Virus record (IMG/VR): IMGVR_UViG_3300045988_105971 | Location: 1-31,189 of that record | Direction: 5' to 3' (one strand) | Source of the DNA: a virus | DNA: 31,189 nt | Shown here: positions 1 through 30,576 of the stretch, piece after piece | How the letters are laid out: each line of letters begins with the position of its first letter | Numbering within the stretch: position 1 is the stretch's first letter | Program-made: the position numbers and the translations under genes | The notes under the pieces: model-generated | What the model was told of the DNA's origin: nothing | Seen by the model: the letters and a program-made list of their open reading frames with translations, nothing else | The model's database searches: none

Positions 1-55
1 CACCGCTGCGACCATCATCACGGGCGCGGGCACGTTCATCGGCGCCTGCATCGGC
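1..55. repeat. Terminal direct repeat identical to 31135..31189 (circular-contig closure overlap)
   Basis: The first 55 nt of the window are letter-for-letter identical to the last 55 nt. The length matches a typical assembler k-mer, so the molecule closes into a circle. Confidence 0.9.
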
Positions 56-88
56 ATCAGCACGGTGAAGGACGGCGATGCGAAGTGA
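2..88 (+). CDS. Holin, C-terminal part of the gene that begins at 30999 and crosses the circular junction
   Basis: The reading frame continues from 30999..31189 through the 55-bp overlap to TGA at 86-88. Combined product is about 73 aa with two hydrophobic helices (WVGLVVCPALATLTLTV and TAATIITGAGTFIGACIGI) and a charged tail. The stop overlaps the endolysin GTG start (GTGA). Confidence 0.6.
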   Translation, partial: TAATIITGAGTFIGACIGISTVKDGDAK

Positions 89-1179
89 GCAAGCACCAGA
101 AGAAGGCTTTTGCCGAGGTTGTTGGGCTGCTGCTGGCACTCGTGCTTGCTGCGGTGCTGATGCCTGGCACCGCACACGCCTACGTGCAGAAGGAGACGAT
201 CTGCAACCATGGGCACGGATACAACAGTGCCCAGTATTTGACGGTGCACGAGACCGCCAACCCAGGCGCTAGCGCATACAACCACGTGCGCCTGTACGGC
301 AATGGGAGCTGGCAGTACGCCGTCCAGTACGTGATGGACTTGGACGGCGGCACCGTGTACCACTGCATGGAGGACAACCGCAAGGCATGGGCGGTTGGCA
401 ACGGCAACAGCCGTTGCGTCAACATCGAGCTATGTCACGCCACGAACCGCGCAGATTTCAACAAACAGTGGGATGAGGCGGTTAAATGGTGCGGCGACTA
501 CCTCAATAAGCGAGGTTGGGGGATCGATCGGCTTATCAGCCACAACGATGCTCGTATGCGCTGGGGAGGCTCAGACCACACTGACCCGTTGAGCTATTTC
601 AGCTCTTACGGCAAGAGCTGGAACATGTTCAAGGCTGCTGTTCGCGATTACATGGGCACTGGCCAGGTCGGCGGCACCGTGGAGCAGGGAGCCACCGAAA
701 CACAGGCACCGTCCAGCTACAACGGCTCCAAGAGCTACAGCATCGGCTCCACCTACATGGTGACCGCATCGGCTCTCCATGTACGAAGCGGTGCAAGCGT
801 CAACTGCGGCATCGTCCGCACCTATCCGCATGGCCTGCGCTTCACTTTGCTCGAAACAAAGGGCAACTGGGGTCGCACACCAAGCGGTTGGGTCTGCATG
901 GACTACGCCACCAAGGCAGCCGCCAAGTCTAGTGGCACCATCAAGAGCACGGGCAACGGCACGTATAAAGTGACCGCATCGGCTCTTTATGTCCGCACTG
1001 GTGCGGGCACGGGTTACGCAAAGGTTCCGTACCGCAACCTCACCGCCAACGCGAAGGCGCACGCATACTCCAACGGTTGCCTGAAGAACGGCACTCGCGT
1101 GACCGTGCTGCAAACATCCGGCAACTGGGCGCGCATCCCCAGCGGTTGGGTGTGCATGGACTACCTGAAGGCTGCGTAA
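85..1179 (+). CDS. Endolysin: N-acetylmuramoyl-L-alanine amidase (Amidase_2/PGRP fold) with N-terminal signal-peptide-like segment and three C-terminal SH3b-like repeats
   Basis: 364-aa ORF with GTG start overlapping the holin stop. Residues about 35-190 carry Amidase_2-type motifs (HETANPGA..., NIELCH, SHND...HTDP). Three degenerate repeats follow (Y.VTASAL.VR.GA...GNW.R.PSGWVCMDY), typical of SH3b cell-wall-binding domains. The N-terminus (LLLALVLAAVLMPGTAHA) resembles a signal or SAR sequence. Confidence 0.85.
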   Translation: MSKHQKKAFAEVVGLLLALVLAAVLMPGTAHAYVQKETICNHGHGYNSAQYLTVHETANPGASAYNHVRLYGNGSWQYAVQYVMDLDGGTVYHCMEDNRKAWAVGNGNSRCVNIELCHATNRADFNKQWDEAVKWCGDYLNKRGWGIDRLISHNDARMRWGGSDHTDPLSYFSSYGKSWNMFKAAVRDYMGTGQVGGTVEQGATETQAPSSYNGSKSYSIGSTYMVTASALHVRSGASVNCGIVRTYPHGLRFTLLETKGNWGRTPSGWVCMDYATKAAAKSSGTIKSTGNGTYKVTASALYVRTGAGTGYAKVPYRNLTANAKAHAYSNGCLKNGTRVTVLQTSGNWARIPSGWVCMDYLKAA

Positions 1180-1205
1180 CCAAATTCATGCCAAATTTGC
1201 ACCAA

Positions 1206-1234
1206 CTTTTCACCAGTGCTTTTTGGCGTACAAT
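1206..1234 (+). promoter_or_regulatory. Candidate sigma70-like promoter (TTTTCA - 16 nt - TACAAT) in AT-rich spacer after endolysin
   Basis: TACAAT at 1229-1234 with a weak -35-like TTTTCA at 1207-1212 and an AT-rich upstream stretch. No protein gene lies downstream before the terminator at 1432-1474. Confidence 0.25.
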
Positions 1235-1390
1235 CAGCATTGCTGAAGCCGCTAACGCCTCTGGGCTCGAGCAGGTTCGAGTAGGTTCGAGCTTGTTGTA
1301 CGCAAGTGAAACCTGGCGGCAGGCCATGGTCGATCGATCGAAAAAGACCCAAGGCTTTTAGCCAATCGGCGAATTATCGGCGAATCGACC

Positions 1391-1422
1391 AAAAAAAGAG
1401 CCCGATCTTTGGTCAATCGGGC
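1391..1422 (-). terminator. Rho-independent terminator for the leftward cargo operon
   Basis: On the minus strand, a 7-bp stem (gcccgat / atcgggc) with a 9-nt loop is followed by a run of U (plus-strand aaaaaaa at 1391-1397). It lies just downstream of the 1482 stop of the 271-aa ORF. Confidence 0.6.
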
Positions 1423-1431
1423 AATGAGACG

Positions 1432-1474
1432 GGGCACCTGGCTTTGCGCTGGGTGCCCTTATTTTTTTGTTTGT
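1432..1474 (+). terminator. Rho-independent terminator (plus strand)
   Basis: Stem gggcacc (1432-1438) and ggtgccc (1452-1458) with a 13-nt loop, followed by ttatttttttgtttgt. Confidence 0.6.
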
Positions 1475-1481
1475 GCGGGGG

Positions 1482-2297
1482 TTAGTACATGGTCATGTCA
1501 ATATTGAGCCTCTTGCAGATGTTGACCATTCGCTGCATGTCCCTATCCGAGGCGGTGAGCGGAACTCTTACAGTCGTCGAAGAGCCCCTTGGTGCCGAGG
1601 GCTGCGTGCCATGCTCTGTTGGCTGGCACGGTCCCCTGAATACCAATCCATGTTTCTTTGCCGATGAAGCATGCCTCAGCTTGCCCTCGTCGTCGAACCC
1701 GATGCCATGGCCATCGTAGTTGCCCTCGAACCATGCCTTGCCATTACGGTTGAGCGAGCTTTTCTTTGCCAGTCCGACGACTTCCATGTGGCTATCGCCC
1801 TGACGTAAAATGCAGTACGCATCCGCACCGTCGATCCGGCACCTTACCGCGATGTCACGCCCATTGACGTCTGGCTTCATGCTGGCAATGATGTCGAGCA
1901 ACCTGGTCTCGTGGCTGGGGAAGCCGCTGCTGCACCATGCGTCGTCAACGGGCCCGGGCTCACAGCATGGCTGTTGTTCGGCGCCGCCGTCAAGCTGGCT
2001 GTCTGCACTCAACGCCTCTGCCCACCCGTCTGGATTGTTGTCCGTGACGGCGTATCCCATTCTCCTGGACATGAAGCTGACCGCGCCGATGGACGAGAGG
2101 GCTCCCAGGATGGTGGATGCCTGGTTGCGTGGGATCCCCATATCTTCTTGCATCTCGCCAGAGCGGAACGCCCCATCTCCGTCAGCCGACCACGCTATCC
2201 ATTCGATGGTGTTACGAAGCACGGTGACTGGGATGCCCCTGTGAGACAAAGGCCCGAAGAGCTGCCCGTTCTTTATGTAGAAATCCTTGTTTTGCAT
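1482..2297 (-). CDS. Hypothetical 271-aa cargo (moron) protein, no recognisable domain
   Basis: Begins 6 nt after the stop of the XRE regulator, so it looks like a two-gene operon. G+C is visibly lower than the phage backbone. No signal peptide or TM segment. I found no HExxH, GIY-YIG, Fic or recombinase motif. Confidence 0.6.
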   Translation of the reverse strand: MQNKDFYIKNGQLFGPLSHRGIPVTVLRNTIEWIAWSADGDGAFRSGEMQEDMGIPRNQASTILGALSSIGAVSFMSRRMGYAVTDNNPDGWAEALSADSQLDGGAEQQPCCEPGPVDDAWCSSGFPSHETRLLDIIASMKPDVNGRDIAVRCRIDGADAYCILRQGDSHMEVVGLAKKSSLNRNGKAWFEGNYDGHGIGFDDEGKLRHASSAKKHGLVFRGPCQPTEHGTQPSAPRGSSTTVRVPLTASDRDMQRMVNICKRLNIDMTMY

Positions 2298-2303
2298 ATG
2301 CGG

Positions 2304-2741
2304 TTACCCCTGTTCTTCGCTCACTGTATCCATCAGCCCAGGGAACCCGAACTCCACGTCGAATCCCATCTCCATGAGCATATGTCCTGCGAGCCTGGCG
2401 TTGGCGTTGGCCATCTGCCATTTGGCGGGATCCTCTTCGGGATGAGCACGGGCGTACTCCACCGCATTGCCCCAGTAGCTCAGCCGCACCACCTTCGGTG
2501 TGCCGCGCTCGTCCTCCATGCGCTCAACGGCAGTGATAACCTCGTCAATCGCGCGTATCTGATCTTCACGCGCCTTGATGAGCAGATCCCATGCGAATTC
2601 GCGCGGGGCGTATGCCGTGTTCTCGGCATCCTCCCAGCGCCTAACGCTTCGCGCATCGATGCCGCATTCCTTCGCCACGTGCGCCTGCGTCATGCCCACG
2701 GTTTCGCGAAGTGCGCGGAAGTTTGCTATTGTGTGCTCCAT
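2304..2741 (-). CDS. XRE-family helix-turn-helix transcriptional regulator (candidate repressor)
   Basis: N-terminal HTH_3-like segment LRETVGMTQAHVAKECGIDARSVRRWE. 145 aa. Transcribed divergently from the Cro/Xis-like gene. Confidence 0.75.
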   Translation of the reverse strand: MEHTIANFRALRETVGMTQAHVAKECGIDARSVRRWEDAENTAYAPREFAWDLLIKAREDQIRAIDEVITAVERMEDERGTPKVVRLSYWGNAVEYARAHPEEDPAKWQMANANARLAGHMLMEMGFDVEFGFPGLMDTVSEEQG

Positions 2742-2792
2742 AGCTGCTCCTTTTACGGTTGGAGCCGCCCGAAAGCGGCTCCTTGTGTGCTG

Positions 2793-3047
2793 TTAGATGC
2801 TCTGCTTGTAAGCGTCGAATGTCTTGCGGGCCTGTTTCAACGCTTCCGAATATCCAAGCTCGGTGACGGAGAACTCGCGGCTGCGGGAGTCGCCGCTACC
2901 GGTTACCTCTCCCTGCTCGTCCTCCCACCAGTCGGTGATCTCGACGTTGATGAGGTCGGCGAACTCGCCCTTGTTCAAGCGCTCGATGGTGATCTCGTAG
3001 CAATGGCCGAGGTGGTTTGCCTTGATTGCATCGATGACGTTCTTCAT
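2793..3047 (-). CDS. Small hypothetical protein (84 aa), weak HicB/DUF1902-like pattern
   Basis: First gene of the leftward operon. The pattern CYEITIERLNKGEFADLINVEI resembles HicB-like antitoxin N-termini, but this is tentative. Confidence 0.45.
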   Translation of the reverse strand: MKNVIDAIKANHLGHCYEITIERLNKGEFADLINVEITDWWEDEQGEVTGSGDSRSREFSVTELGYSEALKQARKTFDAYKQSI

Positions 3048-3103
3048 TTCAATCTTCCTCTCTTGGGGCTTGGCGGGCTTCCTTTGCCCTTCCTTATGTC
3101 TCT

Positions 3104-3132
3104 ATTATAGTCCTATGATAGGACTATAGCAA
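3104..3132 (-). promoter_or_regulatory. Candidate leftward promoter (-10 TATAAT at 3104-3109 on minus strand; -35-like TTGCTA at 3127-3132)
   Basis: On the minus strand a perfect TATAAT lies 17 bp downstream of TTGCTA. The 23-bp palindrome sits between and over the two hexamers. The site is about 60 nt upstream of the 3047 start codon. Confidence 0.35.
3106..3128. promoter_or_regulatory. Perfect 23-bp palindromic operator candidate tatagtcctat-g-ataggactata
   Basis: 11-bp arms are exact reverse complements about the central g at 3117. The element overlaps the leftward -10. Confidence 0.6.
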
Positions 3133-3281
3133 GAGAAATCTTTTGCCATTCGCGCCGACCGCGCGCGACCCGTCACCGTCCGTCACCGTCCGACACGGTG
3201 CGACAAAGGTGCGACACTGTCGCGACAGTTCGACGACGCTGTCGTTTGCTTGTCGCTGTGGATAACTTGGTCTGCCTCTTT

Positions 3282-3328
3282 GCCTGTGCAGAAAAATTGT
3301 GAATAAACTGTGCAACTTCTGCACAGGC
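3282..3328. promoter_or_regulatory. Inverted repeat gcctgtgcagaa ... ttctgcacaggc (12-bp arms, 23-nt AT-rich spacer) with TGTGCA half-sites; candidate operator over a rightward promoter-like element
   Basis: Arms at 3282-3293 and 3317-3328 are exact reverse complements. The spacer holds a further ctgtgca copy. TTGCCT (3279-3284), 17 nt, then TAAACT (3302-3307) reads as a weak sigma70-like promoter. Confidence 0.45.
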
Positions 3329-3425
3329 AACCGCGATACCCTGACGCGCTCTGGTATGGTTATGCACGCTGAGGTGCAGCAATGAACGCCTAAGCACAGT
3401 TGGGAACACGTAGGTACGCTCTTCC

Positions 3426-3505
3426 GGTCCGCAGGTGCGCACGGGGCAACCCCCCCCATGAGCCACCTCCATTCAAACGTTTCAACCCGTGCGCACCTGC
3501 GGACC
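3426..3505. promoter_or_regulatory. 20-bp perfect inverted repeat (ggtccgcaggtgcgcacggg / cccgtgcgcacctgcggacc) with 40-nt spacer containing a C7 tract; long hairpin in the leader of the Cro/Xis-like gene
   Basis: 3426-3445 is the exact reverse complement of 3486-3505. The loop contains ccccccc at 3451-3457. The RBS and ATG at 3526 follow immediately. Confidence 0.6.
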
Positions 3506-3525
3506 AGAGAAGGAAAGGAGCAGAC

Positions 3526-3741
3526 ATGGAGCTGACGATGCCCAAGAGGCCGATTGGCAAGCCGATGTACACGGTGCAGGAGGTCGCCCAGCTGGCGGGC
3601 GTCAGCAAGGGAACCGTATACGAGGAGATCAAGCGCGGGAACCTCCAGGCGGTGGTCCGCAGGGGATGCACCCAGGGATACCGCATCAGGAGCGAGGCGC
3701 TGGACAGATGGATCGACGAGCAGTGGACGCCCGTCGTGTAG
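3526..3741 (+). CDS. HTH_17 (excisionase/MerR-like) DNA-binding protein; candidate Cro/Xis-like early regulator
   Basis: YTVQEVAQLAGVSKGTVYEEIKRGNLQAV is a classic excisionase-family HTH. RBS ggaaaggag sits upstream of the ATG. First gene of the rightward early operon. Confidence 0.7.
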   Translation: MELTMPKRPIGKPMYTVQEVAQLAGVSKGTVYEEIKRGNLQAVVRRGCTQGYRIRSEALDRWIDEQWTPVV

Positions 3742-3754
3742 AGAGGAGACAGGC

Positions 3755-3889
3755 ATGACAGCAACGGATAGGGCGCGCATGCGCGAGGAGATGCGCCGCG
3801 AGGAGCGCAGGCGGCTCGCCGTCGACACGGCAGTCGTGATGGGCGGCTTCACCGCGCTGGTGGCGCTGTTCTGGGTGCTGGCGCTCTGA
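3755..3889 (+). CDS. Small membrane protein (44 aa)
   Basis: RBS gagaggagacaggc before the ATG. C-terminal hydrophobic helix GGFTALVALFWVLAL. Stop overlaps the RusA start (TGATG). Confidence 0.4.
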   Translation: MTATDRARMREEMRREERRRLAVDTAVVMGGFTALVALFWVLAL

Positions 3890-4248
3890 TGCGGTACGTG
3901 TTCGAGGTGCCGGGCGTCCTTCCGACGCTCAACGAGTACGTGAACTGCGAGCGCGCCAACCGCTACGCCGCCGCGAGCCTCAAGAAGAGCGTGCAGGGCC
4001 GCATACGCGAGTGCCTGGTGCGCGCCCCCGAGTTCAAGGGGCATGTGACGGTGGAGATCACCTGGATCCGCCCGAACGCGCGCAGCGACAAGGACAACGT
4101 CGCCTTCGCCAAGAAGTTCATCCTCGACGCGCTCCAGGAAGCGGGCGTGATCGAGAGCGACAGCTGGAAGATGTGCACCCCGTACGACGCGGGGTTCATG
4201 GTTAACAGGAAGCGCCCTCGCACCGTGGTGCGCATCGAGGGCGACTAG
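3889..4248 (+). CDS. rusA: RusA-like Holliday-junction resolvase
   Basis: 119 aa. The motif DKDNVAFAKKFILDALQEAGVIESDSW matches the RusA catalytic Asp cluster (compare E. coli RusA [25 protein letters not shown]). An N-terminal PTLNEY-type motif is also present. Confidence 0.6.
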   Translation: MRYVFEVPGVLPTLNEYVNCERANRYAAASLKKSVQGRIRECLVRAPEFKGHVTVEITWIRPNARSDKDNVAFAKKFILDALQEAGVIESDSWKMCTPYDAGFMVNRKRPRTVVRIEGD

Positions 4249-4874
4249 TGGGACGCGAATGGACGACAAGGGAGATAGCGTACCTGCGCGAGAGCGCGGG
4301 CAGGGTGCCCCTGCGCGAGATCCAGCTGCACCTGCGCCGAAGCGCCGAGAGCGTGCGCTGGCAGGCGAAGAAGCTCGGCCTTTCTGTGCGGGTCCCGGCA
4401 TGGCGGCTCCACTGGTGCGACGAGTGCGCCACATGGCGCACGAGGATCCAGGCCAACGGGCGCTGCCGAGTGTGCCAGGCGCGGGCGAACATCGAGCGCG
4501 AGGAGGGCCGCATCGCCGACGCCCTGCGCGGGCTGCCGCTCGAGCGGAGGCTCGCCTTCGAGCGCGGAGAGTCGAAGAAGGGGCGCCAGAAGGCAATGGG
4601 GCCTCCTCCGGTGAGGCAACGGGTCCCGGAGGACGCGACGCCGTACCAGCGGTCCAGGGCCGAGCAGGACTACCTGGCTGCTATGGAGCACTGGCAATGG
4701 GAGCGGCTGCAGATGCGCTACGACGCGCAGAGGCAGCGGCTCAAGGACATAAAGGACATCGGAAGGAAGGAAAAGCATGCAACTGAAGGAGATCAGCCTG
4801 GAGGACGTGTTCCCCAGCAAGGACAACCCACGCCAGGACTTCGGGGACATCGAGGCGCTGGCGGAGAGCCTTGA
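4248..4874 (+). CDS. Hypothetical protein with Cys4 zinc-finger (CDEC...CRVC) and basic N-terminal DNA-binding-like segment
   Basis: GTG start overlapping the RusA stop. The last 98 nt overlap the ParB-like gene in another frame. Confidence 0.45.
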   Translation: MGREWTTREIAYLRESAGRVPLREIQLHLRRSAESVRWQAKKLGLSVRVPAWRLHWCDECATWRTRIQANGRCRVCQARANIEREEGRIADALRGLPLERRLAFERGESKKGRQKAMGPPPVRQRVPEDATPYQRSRAEQDYLAAMEHWQWERLQMRYDAQRQRLKDIKDIGRKEKHATEGDQPGGRVPQQGQPTPGLRGHRGAGGEP

Positions 4875-5985
4875 GGGCGGCCAGCCCAACATCCCGATCA
4901 TCGTCGCCCAGGACGGCGGAATCTACACGATCATCGACGGCGAGCGTCGCTACCGCGCGATGAAGGTGCTCGGCACCAAGCGCACCCAGGCGCTGGTGGC
5001 GGAGGACCAGAGCGACGCGGACGTGATGGTGGCGATGGTCGCCGCCGACAACAAGAAGCAGCTCACGCCGGTGGAACTCTCCCGCGGGATCCAGCAGGCG
5101 CTCCACTTCGCGGACGTGGAGCGCGTCGAGAAGGTGTCGGGGCGCAAGAGCCTGGGGCGCGTGAAGCGAGCTCGGGCGAAGGTGCAGGACGCCGCAGACG
5201 ACATGAGCCTGGACAGGCTCCTAGCCATCGACGAGCTGAGCTTCAGCCGCGCCGCGGTCGACCAGCTGACCAACTGCCGAGAGGCCGAGTGGAGGCGCGT
5301 CTACGACCGCATCAAGCAGGACCTGGAGACGGAGCGCAGGACCCAGGAGCTCGACGACGAGCTGGAGGCGGCGGGCATCGCGAAGGCAATGCGGATGCCG
5401 GACGGCGACTGGGGGTACTTCGCGCAATGCGGCCAGGGCGACGTGCAGAAGCTGGTCGAGCGCGCCGACGGCGCGGAGCTGGTCGCGGTCGGCACGGGGC
5501 TGTACCGCAGCGTGTACCGCAGGACCGACGAGCAGGTAAGCCGCGCCGAGGACGAGCGCCGGGAGCGCATCGACGAGGTGTCGCGTGCGCTTGAGGAGTC
5601 CGCCGAGCGCCGCGCGAAGTGGCTGGGCGAGCTTGTCAACGGCTTAGACGACAGCAAGGCGGGGCCAATCCGCTTCGCGGGCAGCAAGGCCGTGCGCCTG
5701 TGCGCCGAGCGCTTCGAGGAGCGCTTCGGGCGCGAGGTGGAGCGCTTCGACGAGATGTGCGGCACCAGCACCGGCAAGTGCATCAACGAGCTGACGGTGG
5801 CGCTTGGGCTTCCCGGCACGCCCGACGCGCGGAGCCTGGTCGACGGCAAGGCGCCGCTGTACCAGGAGGACATGGCGAAGCAGGGCAAGGCGCTGTTCGC
5901 CGCGATGCTCGCCGACGGCTACGAGCCCGAGGGCGAGGAGGAGGCCGAGCTGTTCAGGCTCATGGAAGAGATGGAGGTGGACTAG
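4777..5985 (+). CDS. ParB-like nuclease domain (ParB/Srx N-terminal) protein
   Basis: N-terminal ParBc signature (DVFPSKDNPRQDFGDIEALAESL ... YTIIDGERRYRAMKVLG). 402 aa. Common in phage recombination/replication modules. Confidence 0.7.
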   Translation: MQLKEISLEDVFPSKDNPRQDFGDIEALAESLEGGQPNIPIIVAQDGGIYTIIDGERRYRAMKVLGTKRTQALVAEDQSDADVMVAMVAADNKKQLTPVELSRGIQQALHFADVERVEKVSGRKSLGRVKRARAKVQDAADDMSLDRLLAIDELSFSRAAVDQLTNCREAEWRRVYDRIKQDLETERRTQELDDELEAAGIAKAMRMPDGDWGYFAQCGQGDVQKLVERADGAELVAVGTGLYRSVYRRTDEQVSRAEDERRERIDEVSRALEESAERRAKWLGELVNGLDDSKAGPIRFAGSKAVRLCAERFEERFGREVERFDEMCGTSTGKCINELTVALGLPGTPDARSLVDGKAPLYQEDMAKQGKALFAAMLADGYEPEGEEEAELFRLMEEMEVD

Positions 5986-6885
5986 ATGGGGGAGAGCGTG
6001 GAAGCGAAGGCGCTGGACACCAATCTTGTCGTGGTGAAGGTCGACCCGCAGAAGGTGACCGACCTCATCCTCGGCATGGACGCCGAGGTCAGGAAGTGCA
6101 ACGCCATCGTGGCGGAGTTCGAGGGCTCGACCCTGGACGGTGCCGCAGACGAGGACGTGAAGCGGCTGAGCCAGGACCTCAGCCGCCACTACAAAGACGC
6201 GGACGAGGCGCGCAAGCGGTTCAAGCGCGAGTGGCAGGAGCCGCAGAAGGCGGTGGAGGCGGCCTTCAAGGATGCCCTCGACCCCATGAAGGAGCTCGTC
6301 GACGCGTACAAGGGCGAGCTTGACGCGCGCAACGCAGCCAAGCGCCAGGAGCGATACGAGCTGATGTGCGAGTTCTACGAGGCCGACGCGCCGACGCTCG
6401 CCGAGCTGGTGCCGATCGAGCGTTTCGGAATCGAGCGCGACAAGATGAGCGTGGCCAAGAGCTGGAGCCTGGTCAAGGAGCAGGAGCGCCTACACGCGCA
6501 GCTCGTTCAGGCGCTCAACGACTGGGCGGCGCTCAAGACGGGCCACCTATCCTTCGAGCAGGAGGCGGAGGCGGAGTTCTTCCGCACTCTCAGCCTGCAG
6601 GCGGCGCTCAACCTCAACGCGATGAGGGAAGAGGAGCAGGCGCAGATCGACAAGCTCAACGCAGAGATGGGCGTTGCGCCAGAGCCAGAGCCGACGCCCG
6701 AGCAAGAGCGAGAGCCGCAGCCCGAGCCTGAGCAGGCGGCAGCACAGCCGTCGGAGCCGGTTGGGCGCTACTGCATCGTCTGCGACATGACCCCCGCCCA
6801 GAAGCACAGGCTGCTCGGGTACATGAGGGCGGCAGGCATACACGGGCACATCAACACCATCAGGAAGGAGAACGCAAATGGGTAA
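5986..6885 (+). CDS. Hypothetical phage protein (coiled-coil, possibly DUF1351-like) immediately upstream of RecT
   Basis: 299 aa. Acidic and coiled-coil. The ATG overlaps the ParB-like stop. A C-terminal Pro/Glu-rich linker precedes a short CxxC-containing tail. Confidence 0.5.
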   Translation: MGESVEAKALDTNLVVVKVDPQKVTDLILGMDAEVRKCNAIVAEFEGSTLDGAADEDVKRLSQDLSRHYKDADEARKRFKREWQEPQKAVEAAFKDALDPMKELVDAYKGELDARNAAKRQERYELMCEFYEADAPTLAELVPIERFGIERDKMSVAKSWSLVKEQERLHAQLVQALNDWAALKTGHLSFEQEAEAEFFRTLSLQAALNLNAMREEEQAQIDKLNAEMGVAPEPEPTPEQEREPQPEPEQAAAQPSEPVGRYCIVCDMTPAQKHRLLGYMRAAGIHGHINTIRKENANG

Positions 6886-7690
6886 CGCGATAGTGCAGGC
6901 CCAGCCTCAGCTGACATTGGCCGAGCAGATGCAGTACGCGAACACGGTGTGCAAGGGGTCCCTTGTGCCGAAGGCGTACCAGAACAGCGCGGCGAACGTG
7001 CTGATCGCCATGGACTTCGGGCGCTCCATGGGGCTGTCCCCGGCAGAGAGCCTGTACAGAATCACGGTCATCAACGGCAAGCCAACTGCGAGCGCCGAGC
7101 TCATCGCCGCCAACGTCCGCCGCGCCGGGCACAAGCTTCGCGTCAAGAAGGACGAGCAGGCCAAGAAGGCCACGGTCGAGATCGTCCGAGCAGACGACCC
7201 CGACTACACGTTCAGCGTGACATGGGACATGGCCAAGGCGCAGCAGGCGCAGCTCAGCGGCAAGGAGAACTGGAAGAAGTACCCCATGGCCATGCTCACG
7301 GCGCGCGCCATCACGGAGTGCGCACGGGACGCGTGCCCCGAGGCGCTTTACGGAGTGGTCTACACGGGCGAGGAGATGGAGGGCGGCTTCGGCTCAGCCT
7401 CCGACGGCTACCAGGTGGAGGTGCTCGACGATCAGCCTCAGCCTACGCAGCCGCAGCAGCCCCAGCAGACGAAGGAGCAGTACCAGGCTGGGATCCAGCT
7501 CGGAGAGTGGCAGAGCCGCGCAGGCGCCGCCATGCGGCGCGCCAACGCGCTCGGCTTCCAGATCGCCGAGATAAAGGCGCAGGCCCGCGAGGAGTACGGC
7601 GTGGACATCGCCGACATGGGCGTGCCGCAGCTCCAGGCGTTCTGCGCGGAGCTGGAGGGCACCCTGGCGGCGTTCGAGGCGGCGGAATGA
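6878..7690 (+). CDS. recT: RecT-family single-strand annealing recombinase
   Basis: Motifs NVLIAMDFG..MGLSP..LYRITVINGKPT..SAELIAANVRRAGH...KYPMAMLTARAITECAR are characteristic of RecT. 270 aa. Confidence 0.75.
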   Translation: MGNAIVQAQPQLTLAEQMQYANTVCKGSLVPKAYQNSAANVLIAMDFGRSMGLSPAESLYRITVINGKPTASAELIAANVRRAGHKLRVKKDEQAKKATVEIVRADDPDYTFSVTWDMAKAQQAQLSGKENWKKYPMAMLTARAITECARDACPEALYGVVYTGEEMEGGFGSASDGYQVEVLDDQPQPTQPQQPQQTKEQYQAGIQLGEWQSRAGAAMRRANALGFQIAEIKAQAREEYGVDIADMGVPQLQAFCAELEGTLAAFEAAE

Positions 7691-7974
7691 CGGCGGTCGA
7701 CGGGCTACGCCCGGTAGAGGAGCTGCCGAGGCGCAACCTCGGGGAGAAGAAGGCCCGCATCCAGATGATGCTCTCGAGCTTTGTCGAGAGCGGCGAGGAC
7801 CTGTGCGAGGTCGTGATGGACTCGACGGGAGGGCCGCTGGAGGAGGGGCGTATCGAGCCGCTCCGCGGTTACATGTACAGGATTATCGCGGACGAGGGGC
7901 TGCCGGTGCGCACCCTCGTCCGCAAGGACGCAGAGGGTAGGCGCAGGCTCTACCTCGGAAAGGCAGGCAAATGA
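7687..7974 (+). CDS. Hypothetical protein (95 aa)
   Basis: ATG overlaps the RecT stop (ATGA). It is the only protein-like part of the long alternative-frame ORF 6949..7974. Confidence 0.45.
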   Translation: MTAVDGLRPVEELPRRNLGEKKARIQMMLSSFVESGEDLCEVVMDSTGGPLEEGRIEPLRGYMYRIIADEGLPVRTLVRKDAEGRRRLYLGKAGK

Positions 7975-8414
7975 GCATCAATCGAGTCGTGATCAGCGGA
8001 AACATCACCCGCGATCCAGAGCTTCGGAGCACACAGGGCGGCATGGCGATCCTGGGCTTCGGCGTAGCGGTCAACGACCGCCGCAAGAACCAGCAGACGG
8101 GGGAGTGGGAGGATTGCCCCAACTTCGTCGACTGCGTGATGTTCGGCACCCGCGCCAAGTCCGTCTCCCGCTTCCTTTCCAAGGGAAGCAAGGTGGCAAT
8201 CGAAGGCAAGCTCCGCTGGAGCCAGTGGGAGCGCGACGGGCAGAAGCGCAGCAAGATCGAGGTAATAGTGGACGAGATCGAGTTCATGACCAGCCGCGGC
8301 GACGGGCAGCAGGCCCCTGCGCCTCAGACCGCGCCAACCCAGCATCCGTACCAGCCGCCGATAGCGGCTCCCGTGGTGGATGAGTCCATCTACGACGACA
8401 ACATTCCCTTCTAG
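7971..8414 (+). CDS. ssb: Single-stranded DNA-binding protein
   Basis: OB-fold N-terminus (MSINRVVISGNITRDPELR...), Pro/Gln-rich linker and the canonical acidic C-terminal tip DDNIPF. Confidence 0.85.
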   Translation: MSINRVVISGNITRDPELRSTQGGMAILGFGVAVNDRRKNQQTGEWEDCPNFVDCVMFGTRAKSVSRFLSKGSKVAIEGKLRWSQWERDGQKRSKIEVIVDEIEFMTSRGDGQQAPAPQTAPTQHPYQPPIAAPVVDESIYDDNIPF

Positions 8415-30025: not shown

Positions 30026-30371
30026 TTCCGTATCCCAATTTAAGACCGAAGCAAAAGACTACTGGACAGTGACGACGCTCCCCGATGGTTTGCGAATGGC
30101 TTGGACGACAGACGGAACCGGGAGAGTTGCGCCAAACTCTGGATCGACCAAAGAGATTCCTCTCCCTTTCAAGGTGAAAGCAGGAAACGCTATATCCGTT
30201 CTGCATTCTCAGACCGATATAGGCAGATCAGCGCAAAGCGGCTTTACGCAGCTCACGGTCAAGGTTACGGCGACGGCTGACTCTGTCTTTGTAAATGCGT
30301 ACAACGACGACAACACTATGACGCTGAGCACGAGTGTGTCTATTCTCGTGATCGAACGTGCGGTGTATTAG
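29961..30371 (+). other. Silent alternative RBP tip cassette B (open frame with no start codon before the DSVS linker)
   Basis: The frame opens after TGA at 29958-29960. It reads ...RDSVSQFKTEAKDYWTVTTLPDG... to TAG at 30369-30371. The first possible start is an internal GTG at 30069. Low G+C. Confidence 0.45.
30022..30037 (+). repeat. Direct repeat copy 2 gtgattccgtatccca
   Basis: 16-mer identical to 30371-30386. Contains the RBP stop codon TGA (30023-30025). Confidence 0.9.
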
Positions 30372-30576
30372 TGATTCCGTATCCCAGCTTTCCGAGTCCA
30401 AGGCTGTAACGCTCCAATCAGGCATTACGTACGAGGTCAGCGGAAATGTCGTCATCGTCGACTACGTGACGGTGGTCAGCGGCATAGGCGGATCGTACGC
30501 GACGCTGACGTTCGCACCCGACGCGGCAGTCGGCATCGAGTCCGCGACCGTGCTCATCGAGCGCGTGTGCGGGTAA
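30358..30576 (+). CDS. Alternative RBP tip cassette C (72 aa, GTG start two codons after an in-frame stop, no RBS)
   Basis: Reads MRCISDSVSQLSESKAVTLQSGITYEVSG... The beta-rich C-terminus is typical of fibre tips. Confidence 0.4.
   Translation: MRCISDSVSQLSESKAVTLQSGITYEVSGNVVIVDYVTVVSGIGGSYATLTFAPDAAVGIESATVLIERVCG
30371..30386 (+). repeat. Direct repeat copy 3 gtgattccgtatccca
   Basis: Identical to 30022-30037. Confidence 0.9.

What the first reader, a model, noticed from the sequence alone, without database searches (positions are those of the whole stretch)
1482..3047. Lower-GC cargo operon (84-aa protein, XRE regulator, 271-aa unknown protein) where an integrase is expected; no integrase anywhere in the genome
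The usual temperate-siphovirus order is lysis, attP/int, repressor, cro. Here the lysis-to-repressor gap holds a reverse-strand operon instead. It is driven from an operator-bearing promoter, closed by its own terminator, and ends in a 271-aa protein with no motif I can assign. I checked metalloprotease HExxH, Fic, GIY-YIG, Tyr/Ser recombinase signatures and TM segments and found none. Its G+C is visibly below the backbone. The genome has a repressor/Cro-like switch but no integrase, excisionase partner, ParA or recognisable plasmid replication initiator. The 271-aa protein could be a defence or anti-defence moron under repressor control, a toxin, or an unrecognised lysogeny function.
Basis: partly seen in the sequence, partly recalled or inferred. 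Interest (0 to 1): 0.7.

Follow-up and report, generated by a model that had tools for sequence, protein, structure and literature searches.

The report
Anti-defence-like cargo cassette; lysogeny genes deleted
The three reverse-strand genes are a real cargo cassette built like an anti-CRISPR operon, and the phage has no integrase because a ~4.5 kb deletion starting in its attachment site removed the integrase and repressor genes that close relatives still carry.

Summary
The operon is real: 84-aa, 145-aa and 271-aa genes on the minus strand, a near-consensus promoter with an 11-1-11 palindrome, its own terminator, and lower G+C.

The missing integrase has an ordinary cause. Sister phages from an uncultured gut Eggerthellaceae host carry attP (tRNA-Arg core), a 365-aa integrase, cargo, an S24 CI repressor and HTH_17 at this position. 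One relative carries the trio as well, on the far side of attP. In the window the attP arm stops at CTTC (3421-3424), in the tRNA anticodon loop. It is fused there to a look-alike site upstream of HTH_17. About 4.3-4.6 kb is lost, including int and cI. The same junction occurs in at least five independent contigs. So the window is a deletion derivative, probably lytic.

The trio is cargo at the prophage end. The 145-aa protein has the Aca2/YdiL fold. In relatives it follows unrelated small acidic ORFs behind the same promoter, operator and 5'UTR, and one related operon contains ArdA. That is acr-aca architecture, but function is untested.

The 271-aa protein is a lineage-restricted orphan with an N-terminal winged helix. 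It is an add-on to the cassette and also occurs alone in another mobile-element-like region.

The parts
1400..1422 (-). Intrinsic terminator closing the trio operon
   Evidence: stem GCCCGATTGACCAAAGATCGGGC followed by a T-run, about 60 nt after the stop codon of the 271-aa gene.
1431..1459 (+). Terminator of the late/lysis operon, back to back with the trio terminator
   Evidence: In L014 and L017 an IS3-family element is inserted at 1441-1444, between the two terminators.
1482..2297 (-). 271-aa orphan protein: N-terminal winged helix, disordered linker, beta-rich C-terminal domain and a short beta-alpha tail
2304..2741 (-). 145-aa Aca2/YdiL-fold HTH regulator, the predicted autorepressor of the cassette
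   Evidence: AF2 pLDDT 89. Foldseek against PDB puts ZF40 Aca2, 7ezy Aca2, SO3848 and YdiL on top, target-normalised TM 0.63-0.80. The PDB profile search hits Aca3 at 1.7e-6 and full-length Aca2 at 6.9e-4. Pfam PF08965 is matched by 11 of 22 family members but below the gathering cut-off.
2793..3047 (-). 84-aa acidic protein (pI 4.8), the variable payload position and a candidate anti-defence protein
   Evidence: No family or PDB match. Only 3 near-identical homologs. Relatives have unrelated ORFs of 86, 73, 128 and 218 aa at this position, pI 4.0-5.3.
3048..3103 (-). 5'UTR with the conserved block AGACAyAAGGAAGGGCAAG...GCCCGCC, containing a small GGGC/GCCC hairpin
   Evidence: conserved in the window, L111 and L122 although the first ORFs are unrelated. 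No covariation is available.
3104..3132 (-). Cassette promoter TTGCTA-17-TATAAT
   Evidence: 10 of 12 consensus matches.
3106..3128 (.). Operator: perfect 11-1-11 palindrome between the -35 box and over the -10 box
   Evidence: Analogous palindromes occupy the same place in L111, L122 and L004.
3144..3424 (+). Remnant P arm of attP, with short direct repeats and a 14-nt perfect inverted repeat
   Evidence: 85-99% identical to the arm that precedes the tRNA-Arg core in attP (L027, L023) and attR (L003, L005, L006, L014, L017, L022).
3421..3424 (+). Deletion junction: the CTTC shared by the attP core (tRNA anticodon loop) and a core-like site upstream of HTH_17
   Evidence: attP reads GCTCTTC|TAATCCGAAGGT. 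L010 and L024 read CTCCTTC|CGGTCCGCAGGT. The window reads GCTCTTC|CGGTCCGCAGGT.
3423..3508 (+). 23-nt inverted repeat (hairpin) just upstream of the HTH_17 ribosome-binding site; native to the early region
   Evidence: arms 96% complementary.: -39 kcal/mol, z = -3. Present in L010 and L024.
3526..3741 (+). 71-aa HTH_17 (excisionase/MerR-like) protein, first early gene; in sister phages it follows cI and small ORFs

Best explanation
1. The window is the circular genome of a deletion derivative of a temperate siphophage. The host is an uncultured gut Eggerthellaceae bacterium close to 'Eggerthella sp. CAG:209'.

2. The parental order is endolysin, terminators, trio cassette, attP P arm, tRNA-Arg(TCT) core, 365-aa tyrosine integrase, a cargo gene, S24 CI repressor, small ORFs, HTH_17, RusA and onward.

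3. A 4.3-4.6 kb deletion joined the attP core, at the tRNA anticodon loop, to a 12/16 look-alike site about 100 nt upstream of HTH_17. It removed int, cI and the small ORFs next to cI. The phage can therefore no longer integrate or establish CI-type repression. That it is probably obligately lytic is inferred.

4. The trio is not a lysogeny function. It is a cargo cassette at the classic prophage-end position, between the lysis genes and attR.

5. The core of the cassette is a strong promoter, a palindromic operator, a conserved 5'UTR, a variable small acidic payload gene and an Aca2-fold HTH autorepressor. This is the architecture of acr-aca anti-defence operons.

6. Inferred mechanism: a burst of payload expression on DNA entry, then shut-off by the 145-aa protein binding the palindrome.

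7. The 271-aa gene is a later add-on, co-transcribed behind the regulator. It is most likely a winged-helix DNA-binding protein with an anti-defence or inter-element competition role. This is the weakest inference.
For: Shown:
- Sister phages with an identical RusA carry int(365/359 aa), Abi_2 or other cargo, and CI(S24) exactly between the endolysin and HTH_17 (L009, L010, L024, L026-L030).
- The 28-nt tRNA-Arg core lies next to that integrase. L024 is attL with a full tRNA-Arg; L027 is attP. The same core lies at the trio-side host junction of prophages 99% identical to the window (L014, L017, L022).
- The reference host genome has an empty attB beside murI (98% MurI identity).
- L023 carries the trio and 98.9% identity to the window. 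It runs through the core into the P' arm and overlaps L009, from the same sample, by exactly 30 nt. L009 starts with int, Abi_2 and cI.
- The junction sequences were compared directly.
- The identical junction occurs in L008, L011, L012, L013 and L021, from different assemblies.
- No int or cI remnant is present.
- Aca2 fold of the 145-aa protein.
- Two-gene cassettes (payload plus Aca2-like regulator) sit at the same prophage-end position in L111 and L118-L124. Longer operons elsewhere end in the Aca2-like gene, one of them including ArdA (L113-L117).
- The payloads are mutually non-homologous and mostly acidic. The promoter, operator and 5'UTR are conserved.
- The ZF40 acrIF8-aca2 promoter is TTGCTT-17-TATAAT with inverted repeats (PMC6765145). 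Aca2 also binds a structured 5'UTR (PMC13551039).
Against: - No experiment or homology shows that the 84-aa or the 271-aa protein inhibits any defence system.
- The Aca2/YdiL fold also occurs outside acr loci, in YdiL and SO3848 (PMC8434428).
- The Pfam match to PF08965 is below the gathering cut-off (18.8 against 23.8 bits).
- In the window the regulator is not the last gene of the operon.
- The link between L023 and L009 rests on a 30-nt assembly-graph overlap, not on one contig.
- Whether the deletion was made by the integrase or by short-homology illegitimate recombination is not resolved.
- The lytic lifestyle is inferred only from gene loss.
Confidence: 0.7

Rival explanations
1. The trio is a defence, toxin-antitoxin or superinfection-exclusion moron expressed from the prophage. 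The XRE protein would be the antitoxin or regulator, and the 84-aa or 271-aa protein the effector.
For: - It sits at the prophage end, where lysogenic-conversion genes lie.
- There are weak HTH-only similarities to Xre-type, MqsA and HipB antitoxins.
- Sister phages carry Abi_2 or NYN cargo in their lysogeny module, so this phage group does carry defence cargo.
Against: - PADLOC finds nothing.
- The 84-aa protein is acidic and has no RelE/HigB-like hit.
- The first gene is swapped for unrelated ORFs while the promoter, UTR and regulator stay the same. That pattern is typical of acr-aca loci and not of cognate toxin-antitoxin pairs.
- The full-length fold match is to Aca2/YdiL, not to antitoxins.
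- A related operon carries ArdA.
Confidence: 0.2
2. The trio is a new lysogeny or maintenance module (repressor plus an unrecognised recombinase or partition function) that replaces int and cI.
For: - It occupies the gap between the endolysin and the early genes.
- It includes an HTH protein and a DNA-binding-like 271-aa protein.
- The window has no integrase.
Against: - Prophages with the same trio are integrated at the attB of the canonical integrase, with the standard tRNA-core duplication.
- L023 joined to L009 shows the trio and int-cI together.
- Window-type genomes are seen only in the uninterrupted form.
- Related cassettes lack the 271-aa gene altogether.
- The ParB_N protein is also present in the integrase-bearing sisters.
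Confidence: 0.04
3. The 293/294-aa tyrosine recombinase that relatives carry next to a response regulator near the tail-fibre genes is the real integrase, and the window simply lost that module.
For: Trio-bearing integrated prophages (L003-L006, L014, L017) all show this recombinase 6-8 kb from the junction. The window lacks it.
Against: - L027 carries both this module and the canonical int-cI module.
- The recombinase is flanked by tail-fibre (Gp10_C) fragments in alternative orientations, as expected of an invertase.
- The tRNA-Arg core sits next to the 365-aa integrase, not next to this gene.
Confidence: 0.05
4. The junction at 3421-3424 is an assembly chimera, and the real genome still has int and cI.
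For: The window comes from a metagenome assembly, with a 55-nt terminal overlap.
Against: Only 4 nt are identical at the join, far below any assembler k-mer. The same junction is 100% identical in at least 5 contigs from SPAdes-type and Logan assemblies of different samples.
Confidence: 0.01

Closest known systems
acrIF8-aca2 operon of Pectobacterium phage ZF40 (Aca2 family anti-CRISPR-associated autorepressor)
   Same: - A strong promoter with a perfect -10 box and 17-nt spacer: ZF40 TTGCTT-17-TATAAT, here TTGCTA-17-TATAAT (PMC6765145).
- An inverted repeat inside the promoter.
- A small payload gene upstream of the regulator.
- The regulator has the Aca2 HTH plus dimerisation-domain fold.
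- A conserved 5'UTR element; Aca2 binds structured 5'UTR RNA (PMC13551039).
   Different: - The host is an Actinomycetota (Eggerthellaceae) member, not a Proteobacterium.
- Identity to Aca2 is 16-20%, and Pfam PF08965 scores below its cut-off.
- The operator sequence is unrelated to the ZF40 TTCG half-sites.
- A third, 271-aa gene follows the regulator.
- No Acr activity is known for any payload.
Lytic derivatives of temperate phages made by deleting lysogeny genes, for example mycobacteriophage D29 relative to L5 and the Streptococcus thermophilus Sfi21 deletion mutants (from my own knowledge, not checked here)
   Same: A near-identical temperate relative exists. A few-kb deletion in the lysogeny region removes the ability to lysogenise, and the rest of the genome is intact.
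   Different: One deletion end lies exactly in the attP core, in the tRNA anticodon loop. The other lies at a 12/16 core look-alike. Integrase, cargo and repressor are removed together, and the attP-adjacent cargo cassette is left next to the early genes.
Prophage-end morons or lysogenic-conversion cassettes between the lysis module and attR of Gram-positive siphophages (from my own knowledge)
   Same: The same position (lysis genes, cassette, att), its own promoter and terminator, deviating G+C, and mosaic presence or absence among relatives.
   Different: The cassette is built like an anti-defence operon with an Aca2-type regulator, rather than a toxin or virulence gene.
YdiL (1S4K) and SO3848 (2OX6), Aca2 structural homologs of unknown function
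   Same: The same two-domain fold, target-normalised TM 0.63-0.80. Inverted repeats lie near their promoters (PMC8434428).
   Different: Those genes are chromosomal and not in mobile elements. The gene here is in a phage cargo cassette behind a variable payload.

Membership tests
acr-aca (Aca2-type) anti-defence operon | The regulator has the Aca2 fold: an N-terminal HTH plus the Aca2/YdiL C-terminal dimerisation domain | tested here: met
   AF2 pLDDT 89. The top Foldseek PDB hits are Aca2 structures (7vjo, 7ezy, 7b5j, 7vjq), SO3848 and YdiL over the full length, target-normalised TM 0.63-0.80. The profile search hits Aca2 7ezy at E=6.9e-4 over residues 4-118.
acr-aca (Aca2-type) anti-defence operon | Sequence membership in Pfam PF08965 (Aca2_YdiL) at the curated cut-off | tested here: not met
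   18.8 bits against a cut-off of 23.8. 11 of 22 family members match at E<0.01, best 5e-5. This is a distant relative.
acr-aca (Aca2-type) anti-defence operon | The regulator gene lies downstream of one or more small payload genes in one operon, and the payloads vary between loci | tested here: met
   The 84-aa gene lies 51 nt upstream. Relatives have unrelated ORFs of 86, 73, 128 and 218 aa before a homologous regulator. Deviation: in the window a 271-aa gene follows the regulator.
acr-aca (Aca2-type) anti-defence operon | A strong promoter carrying an inverted-repeat operator | tested here: met
   TTGCTA-17-TATAAT with an 11-1-11 palindrome. The same layout is seen in L111, L122 and L004.
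acr-aca (Aca2-type) anti-defence operon | A structured RNA motif in the 5'UTR that is bound by the regulator | tested here: inconclusive
   A conserved 5'UTR block with a GGGC/GCCC hairpin occurs in three cassettes, but there is no covariation and no binding data.
acr-aca (Aca2-type) anti-defence operon | The regulator represses its own promoter | not testable with these tools
   Needs a reporter assay or EMSA.
acr-aca (Aca2-type) anti-defence operon | The payload inhibits CRISPR-Cas or another defence system | not testable with these tools
   The 84-aa protein matches no family and no solved structure, including any solved Acr. No Acr-specific HMM library was available.
Temperate-phage integration module (tyrosine integrase plus attP) | An integrase gene is present | tested here: not met
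   Pfam scans and tblastn with the relatives' integrases are negative.
Temperate-phage integration module (tyrosine integrase plus attP) | An intact attP with a core identical to attB | tested here: not met
   The P arm is present (3144-3424), but the tRNA-Arg core stops after CTTC. The 28-nt core is absent from the window.
CI/Cro-type genetic switch | A CI-like (HTH plus S24) repressor divergent from an early-gene promoter | tested here: not met
   The CI of the sister phages has no counterpart in the window beyond a generic HTH match to the Aca2-like gene.
Type II toxin-antitoxin (HigBA / Xre-type) | A recognisable toxin next to the XRE antitoxin | tested here: not met
   No toxin family hit for the 84-aa or 271-aa protein in Pfam, NCBIfam or PADLOC. 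The 84-aa protein is acidic, pI 4.8.
Known anti-phage defence systems (PADLOC) | Any component matches a defence-system model | tested here: not met
   only weak HTH-level hits for the regulator.
Winged-helix transcription factors (ArsR/Rrf2/MarR-like), for the N-terminal domain of the 271-aa protein | A wHTH fold or profile match | tested here: inconclusive

The most novel reading that the evidence does not exclude
The Aca2-like cassettes at the prophage ends of Eggerthellaceae phages may be a reservoir of new anti-defence proteins. [quoted passage not shown] The lineage-restricted 271-aa winged-helix protein may be a new kind of DNA-binding effector. It would act by silencing or blocking a host defence locus or a competing element, and it moves between phages and another mobile element.
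Probability: 0.3. Interest if true: 0.6.

Novelty: new member of a known kind. Interest (0 to 1): 0.35.

Why it matters
It removes an apparent puzzle. A temperate-looking phage without an integrase turns out to be a natural deletion derivative, and the deletion starts inside attP. It also defines attP and attB (tRNA-Arg(TCT) beside murI) and the probable host for a group of gut Eggerthellaceae phages. It extends Aca2-type regulated cassettes to Coriobacteriia phages. That gives a short list of testable anti-defence candidates (84, 86, 73, 128, 218 and 271 aa) for a gut bacterial family whose type I-C CRISPR system is experimentally tractable.

Tried and rejected
- Near-identity DNA search of window 1-8000 against deposited phages: no match.
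- The 271-aa family in GTDB genomes and in IMG/VR, by pattern plus tblastn: nothing.
- Full HMMER profile scan of 1.8 billion representatives: no remote homologs.
- The C-terminal half of the 271-aa protein and the 84-aa protein against PDB sequences: nothing.
- I first read the break in homology as lying at 3436 and suspected attP sat between the trio and HTH_17 in an intact phage. Base-level comparison moved the junction to CTTC at 3421-3424 and showed it is a deletion scar.
- I considered the 293-aa recombinase as the integrase. I rejected it because L027 has both recombinases.
- I looked for homology between the 84-aa protein and the acidic N-terminal extension of the 218-221-aa regulator homologs: not significant.
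- PHROG scan of the neighbourhood of the stand-alone 271-aa homologs (L001, L002): no phage structural genes and no clear conjugation genes, so the type of element is unresolved.
Full report
**What is in the window.** The window is a circular assembly with a 55-nt terminal direct repeat. It is a ~31.1 kb siphophage genome of 63% G+C. Almost every gene is on the + strand:
- early genes: HTH_17, RusA, ParB_N, DUF1351, RecT, SSB, dUTPase;
- packaging and structural genes: terminase, minor capsid protein 2, scaffold, Gp15, tape measure, tail genes;
- lysis genes: a Dp-1-type holin (called on the identical contig L008) and an Amidase_2/SH3 endolysin at 85-1179.

The only convincing minus-strand genes are the three in the finding. 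They lie at 2793-3047 (84 aa), 2304-2741 (145 aa) and 1482-2297 (271 aa), separated by 51 and 6 nt.

The promoter is a 10/12 sigma-70 match, TTGCTA-17-TATAAT (3132-3104). A perfect 11-1-11 palindrome (3106-3128) lies between and over the -10 box and occurs nowhere else in the window. A minus-strand terminator (1422-1400) stands back to back with the late-operon terminator (1431-1459).

G+C of the trio is 58.4% and GC3 is 71-82%, against 91-95% in core genes. The endolysin and the 9-14 kb region are also low.

**Why there is no integrase.** I looked up contigs that encode exactly the window's RusA, HTH_17 and 84-aa proteins. They fall into three classes.

1. *Window-type contigs.* L008, L011, L012, L013 and L021 are 100% identical across 1100-3800. 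They come from several samples and two kinds of assembler.

2. *Sister phages and prophages with a canonical lysogeny module.* These are L009, L010, L024 and L026-L030. Between the endolysin and HTH_17 they carry, on the minus strand, a 359/365-aa tyrosine integrase, a cargo gene (Abi_2, NYN or an unknown gene) and an HTH+Peptidase_S24 CI repressor. In most of them small + strand ORFs follow, and then HTH_17.
   - In L024 the integrase lies next to a complete tRNA-Arg(TCT) and host genes, so this end is attL.
   - In L027, the free form, the order is endolysin, terminator region, a 290-nt arm 85% identical to window 3144-3436, the 3' part of tRNA-Arg, then int.

3. *Integrated prophages carrying the trio.* L014, L017 and L022 are 99% identical to the window over 1441-3436. 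L003, L005 and L006 are about 77-89% identical. In all of them the same arm runs into the same 28-nt tRNA-Arg core, followed by the tRNA's terminator hairpin and host murI, Ham1 and tRNA-Pro/Gly. This end is attR.

The MurI protein is 98% identical to that of 'Eggerthella sp. CAG:209'. That genome has the tRNA core beside murI and no phage DNA, so it is an empty attB.

L023 carries the trio (98.9% identical to the window). It continues through the core into the P' arm. Its end overlaps by exactly 30 nt the start of L009, from the same sample, which begins with int, Abi_2, cI, HTH_17 and RusA.

The parental order is therefore endolysin, trio, attP, int, cargo, cI, HTH_17.

**The deletion scar.** Base-level comparison gives three sequences:
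- attP and attR: ...GTAGGTACGCTCTTC|TAATCCGAAGGTCGTAGG...
- the L010/L024 early region: ...CATTCTCCTTC|CGGTCCGCAGGTGCGCACGGGG...
- the window: ...GTAGGTACGCTCTTC|CGGTCCGCAGGTGCGCACGGGG...

The window joins the two parents inside CTTC (3421-3424), which lies in the tRNA anticodon loop. About 4.25-4.6 kb is lost (measured in L027 and L024). The lost segment holds the rest of the core, the P' arm, int, the cargo gene, cI and the small ORFs.

The two parental sites match at 12 of 16 positions (CTTCnnnTCCGnAGGT) and lie in direct orientation. About 1.2 such matches are expected per 31 kb on both strands. Given the 4-nt junction, 8 further matches out of 12 have a probability of roughly 0.003 by my binomial estimate. 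This fits recombination by the integrase between attP and a secondary core-like site. It also fits short-homology illegitimate recombination, perhaps helped by the 23-nt inverted repeat (3423-3445 / 3486-3508) whose base is at the junction. I cannot separate these two.

tblastn with the relatives' integrase, the 293-aa recombinase, CI, the 73-aa ORF next to cI, the response regulator and Abi_2 finds nothing in the window. The ParB_N protein is also present in the integrase-bearing sisters, so it is not a plasmid-prophage adaptation.

That the window phage can neither integrate nor set up CI-type repression, and is therefore probably lytic, is an inference from gene content.

**What the trio is.** In the prophage the trio lies between the lysis cassette and attR, which is the classic cargo position.

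*The 145-aa protein is an Aca2/YdiL-fold regulator.*
- Pfam PF08965 covers residues 8-112 at sub-threshold score and is matched by 11 of 22 family members.
- A family profile hits Aca3 (HTH part only, 1.7e-6) and full-length Aca2 7ezy (6.9e-4) in the PDB.
- A confident AF2 model (pLDDT 89) retrieves ZF40 Aca2, 7ezy, SO3848 and YdiL as the only full-length matches, with target-normalised TM 0.63-0.80.

*Its homologs sit in the same kind of operon.* In other Eggerthellaceae prophages the homologs are the last gene of a two-gene cassette at the same place, between host DNA and a convergent endolysin (L111, L118-L124). In other phages they close longer operons of small variable ORFs, one of which includes the anti-restriction protein ArdA (L113-L117).

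*The payload position is variable.* The first genes (84, 86, 73, 128 and 218 aa) are mutually non-homologous and mostly acidic, pI 4.0-5.3. The promoter, the palindrome between the -35 and -10 boxes, and a 5'UTR block (AGACAyAAGGAAGGGCAAG...GCCCGCC) are conserved.

*This matches the acr-aca2 design described for phage ZF40.* There the promoter is TTGCTT-17-TATAAT with inverted repeats bound by Aca2, the payload lies upstream, and Aca2 also binds a structured 5'UTR (PMC6765145; PMC13551039). [quoted passage not shown]

The Aca2 fold is not proof of an acr locus. YdiL and SO3848 are chromosomal proteins of unknown function (PMC8434428). No payload here matches a known Acr or any solved structure. 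The anti-defence role is inferred from architecture.

**The 271-aa protein.**
- It has 10 homologs among 5.8 billion clustered proteins and none more remote in a full HMMER scan.
- It has no Pfam, PHROG, NCBIfam or PADLOC hit.
- After a disordered linker come a beta-rich domain, the best-modelled part at pLDDT about 75, and a short beta-alpha tail. Neither matches anything.
- It is absent from the two-gene cassettes of relatives. It occurs alone, in two tandem paralogs, in a different mobile-element-like neighbourhood with a CHAP+amidase protein, a SpaA/TQ adhesin and HicA.

It is thus a mobile add-on, co-transcribed behind the regulator with a 6-nt gap. I rate it as a DNA-binding cargo protein of unknown target. 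An anti-defence or inter-element competition role is a guess.

**Verdict.** The operon is real and is cargo. The absence of an integrase is real but comes from an ordinary deletion of the lysogeny module, not from a new lysogeny mechanism. The cassette is a new, distant member of the Aca2-regulated anti-defence-type operons, found in Coriobacteriia phages, and it carries an orphan passenger gene. Interest is moderate to low. The most useful products are the attP/attB and host assignment and a short list of testable anti-defence candidates.

Noticed in passing
L003 12976-17407; L006 5986-10201; L014 15062-18612; L027 1-3360; window 30371-30462: Relatives carry a ~4 kb module between the tail-fibre genes and the holin: three small ORFs, an OmpR-type response regulator, and a divergent 293/294-aa tyrosine recombinase. 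It is flanked by Gp10_C tail-fibre fragments that lie in opposite orientations in L003 and L006. A 92-nt window segment is inverted in those loci. This looks like an invertible tail-fibre (host-range) switch. The window lacks the module.
   Followed up: partly
window 1441-1444; L014 11646-13015; L017 3985-5354: An IS3-family element (165-aa HTH ORF plus 283-aa rve transposase) is inserted between the two back-to-back terminators in two prophages. The flanking alignments overlap by 4 nt, which is probably the target-site duplication.
   Followed up: no
window 3423-3508: A 23-nt inverted repeat (96% complementary, 40-nt loop; RNA fold -39 kcal/mol, z = -3) lies immediately upstream of the HTH_17 ribosome-binding site. 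It is conserved in L010 and L024. It may be a regulatory hairpin or terminator of the early leader, and the deletion junction sits at its base.
   Followed up: partly
window 3144-3424: The attP arm contains tandem CCGTCACCGT repeats (3170-3189), GGTGCGACA repeats (3197-3218) and a 14-nt perfect inverted repeat (3280-3293 / 3317-3330). The block at about 3165-3260 is almost invariant across relatives, including L004, whose flank is otherwise different. These are probably arm-type integrase or excisionase binding sites.
   Followed up: no
L004 8101-9260: In L004 the homology to the window's attP arm ends at about window 3260, and a GH25 lysozyme gene followed by different host genes (GlmS, ligase) comes next. 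The tRNA-Arg core is not present in the fetched stretch. This is either a different integration site or a rearranged prophage end.
   Followed up: no
P0025, P0028, P0046, P0054 (218-221 aa); L113-L115: Some homologs of the Aca2-like regulator carry a ~75-aa highly acidic N-terminal extension (pI about 4) fused to the HTH domain. This is reminiscent of fused Acr-Aca proteins. One source names such a protein DUF4447.
   Followed up: partly
L001 10001-12569; L002 8320-10888: Two paralogs of the 271-aa protein (282 and 295 aa) lie in tandem, separated by an opposite-strand 178-aa ORF. They are on 122-139 kb contigs beside a HicA-like gene, a 1343-aa SpaA/TQ adhesin and a 561-aa CHAP+amidase protein. 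The type of element is unresolved.
   Followed up: partly
L116 5935-7035; L117 5895-7244: A more distant phage with an Aca2-like cassette carries a reverse transcriptase (RVT_1) next to tail-fibre-like genes. It is probably a diversity-generating retroelement.
   Followed up: no
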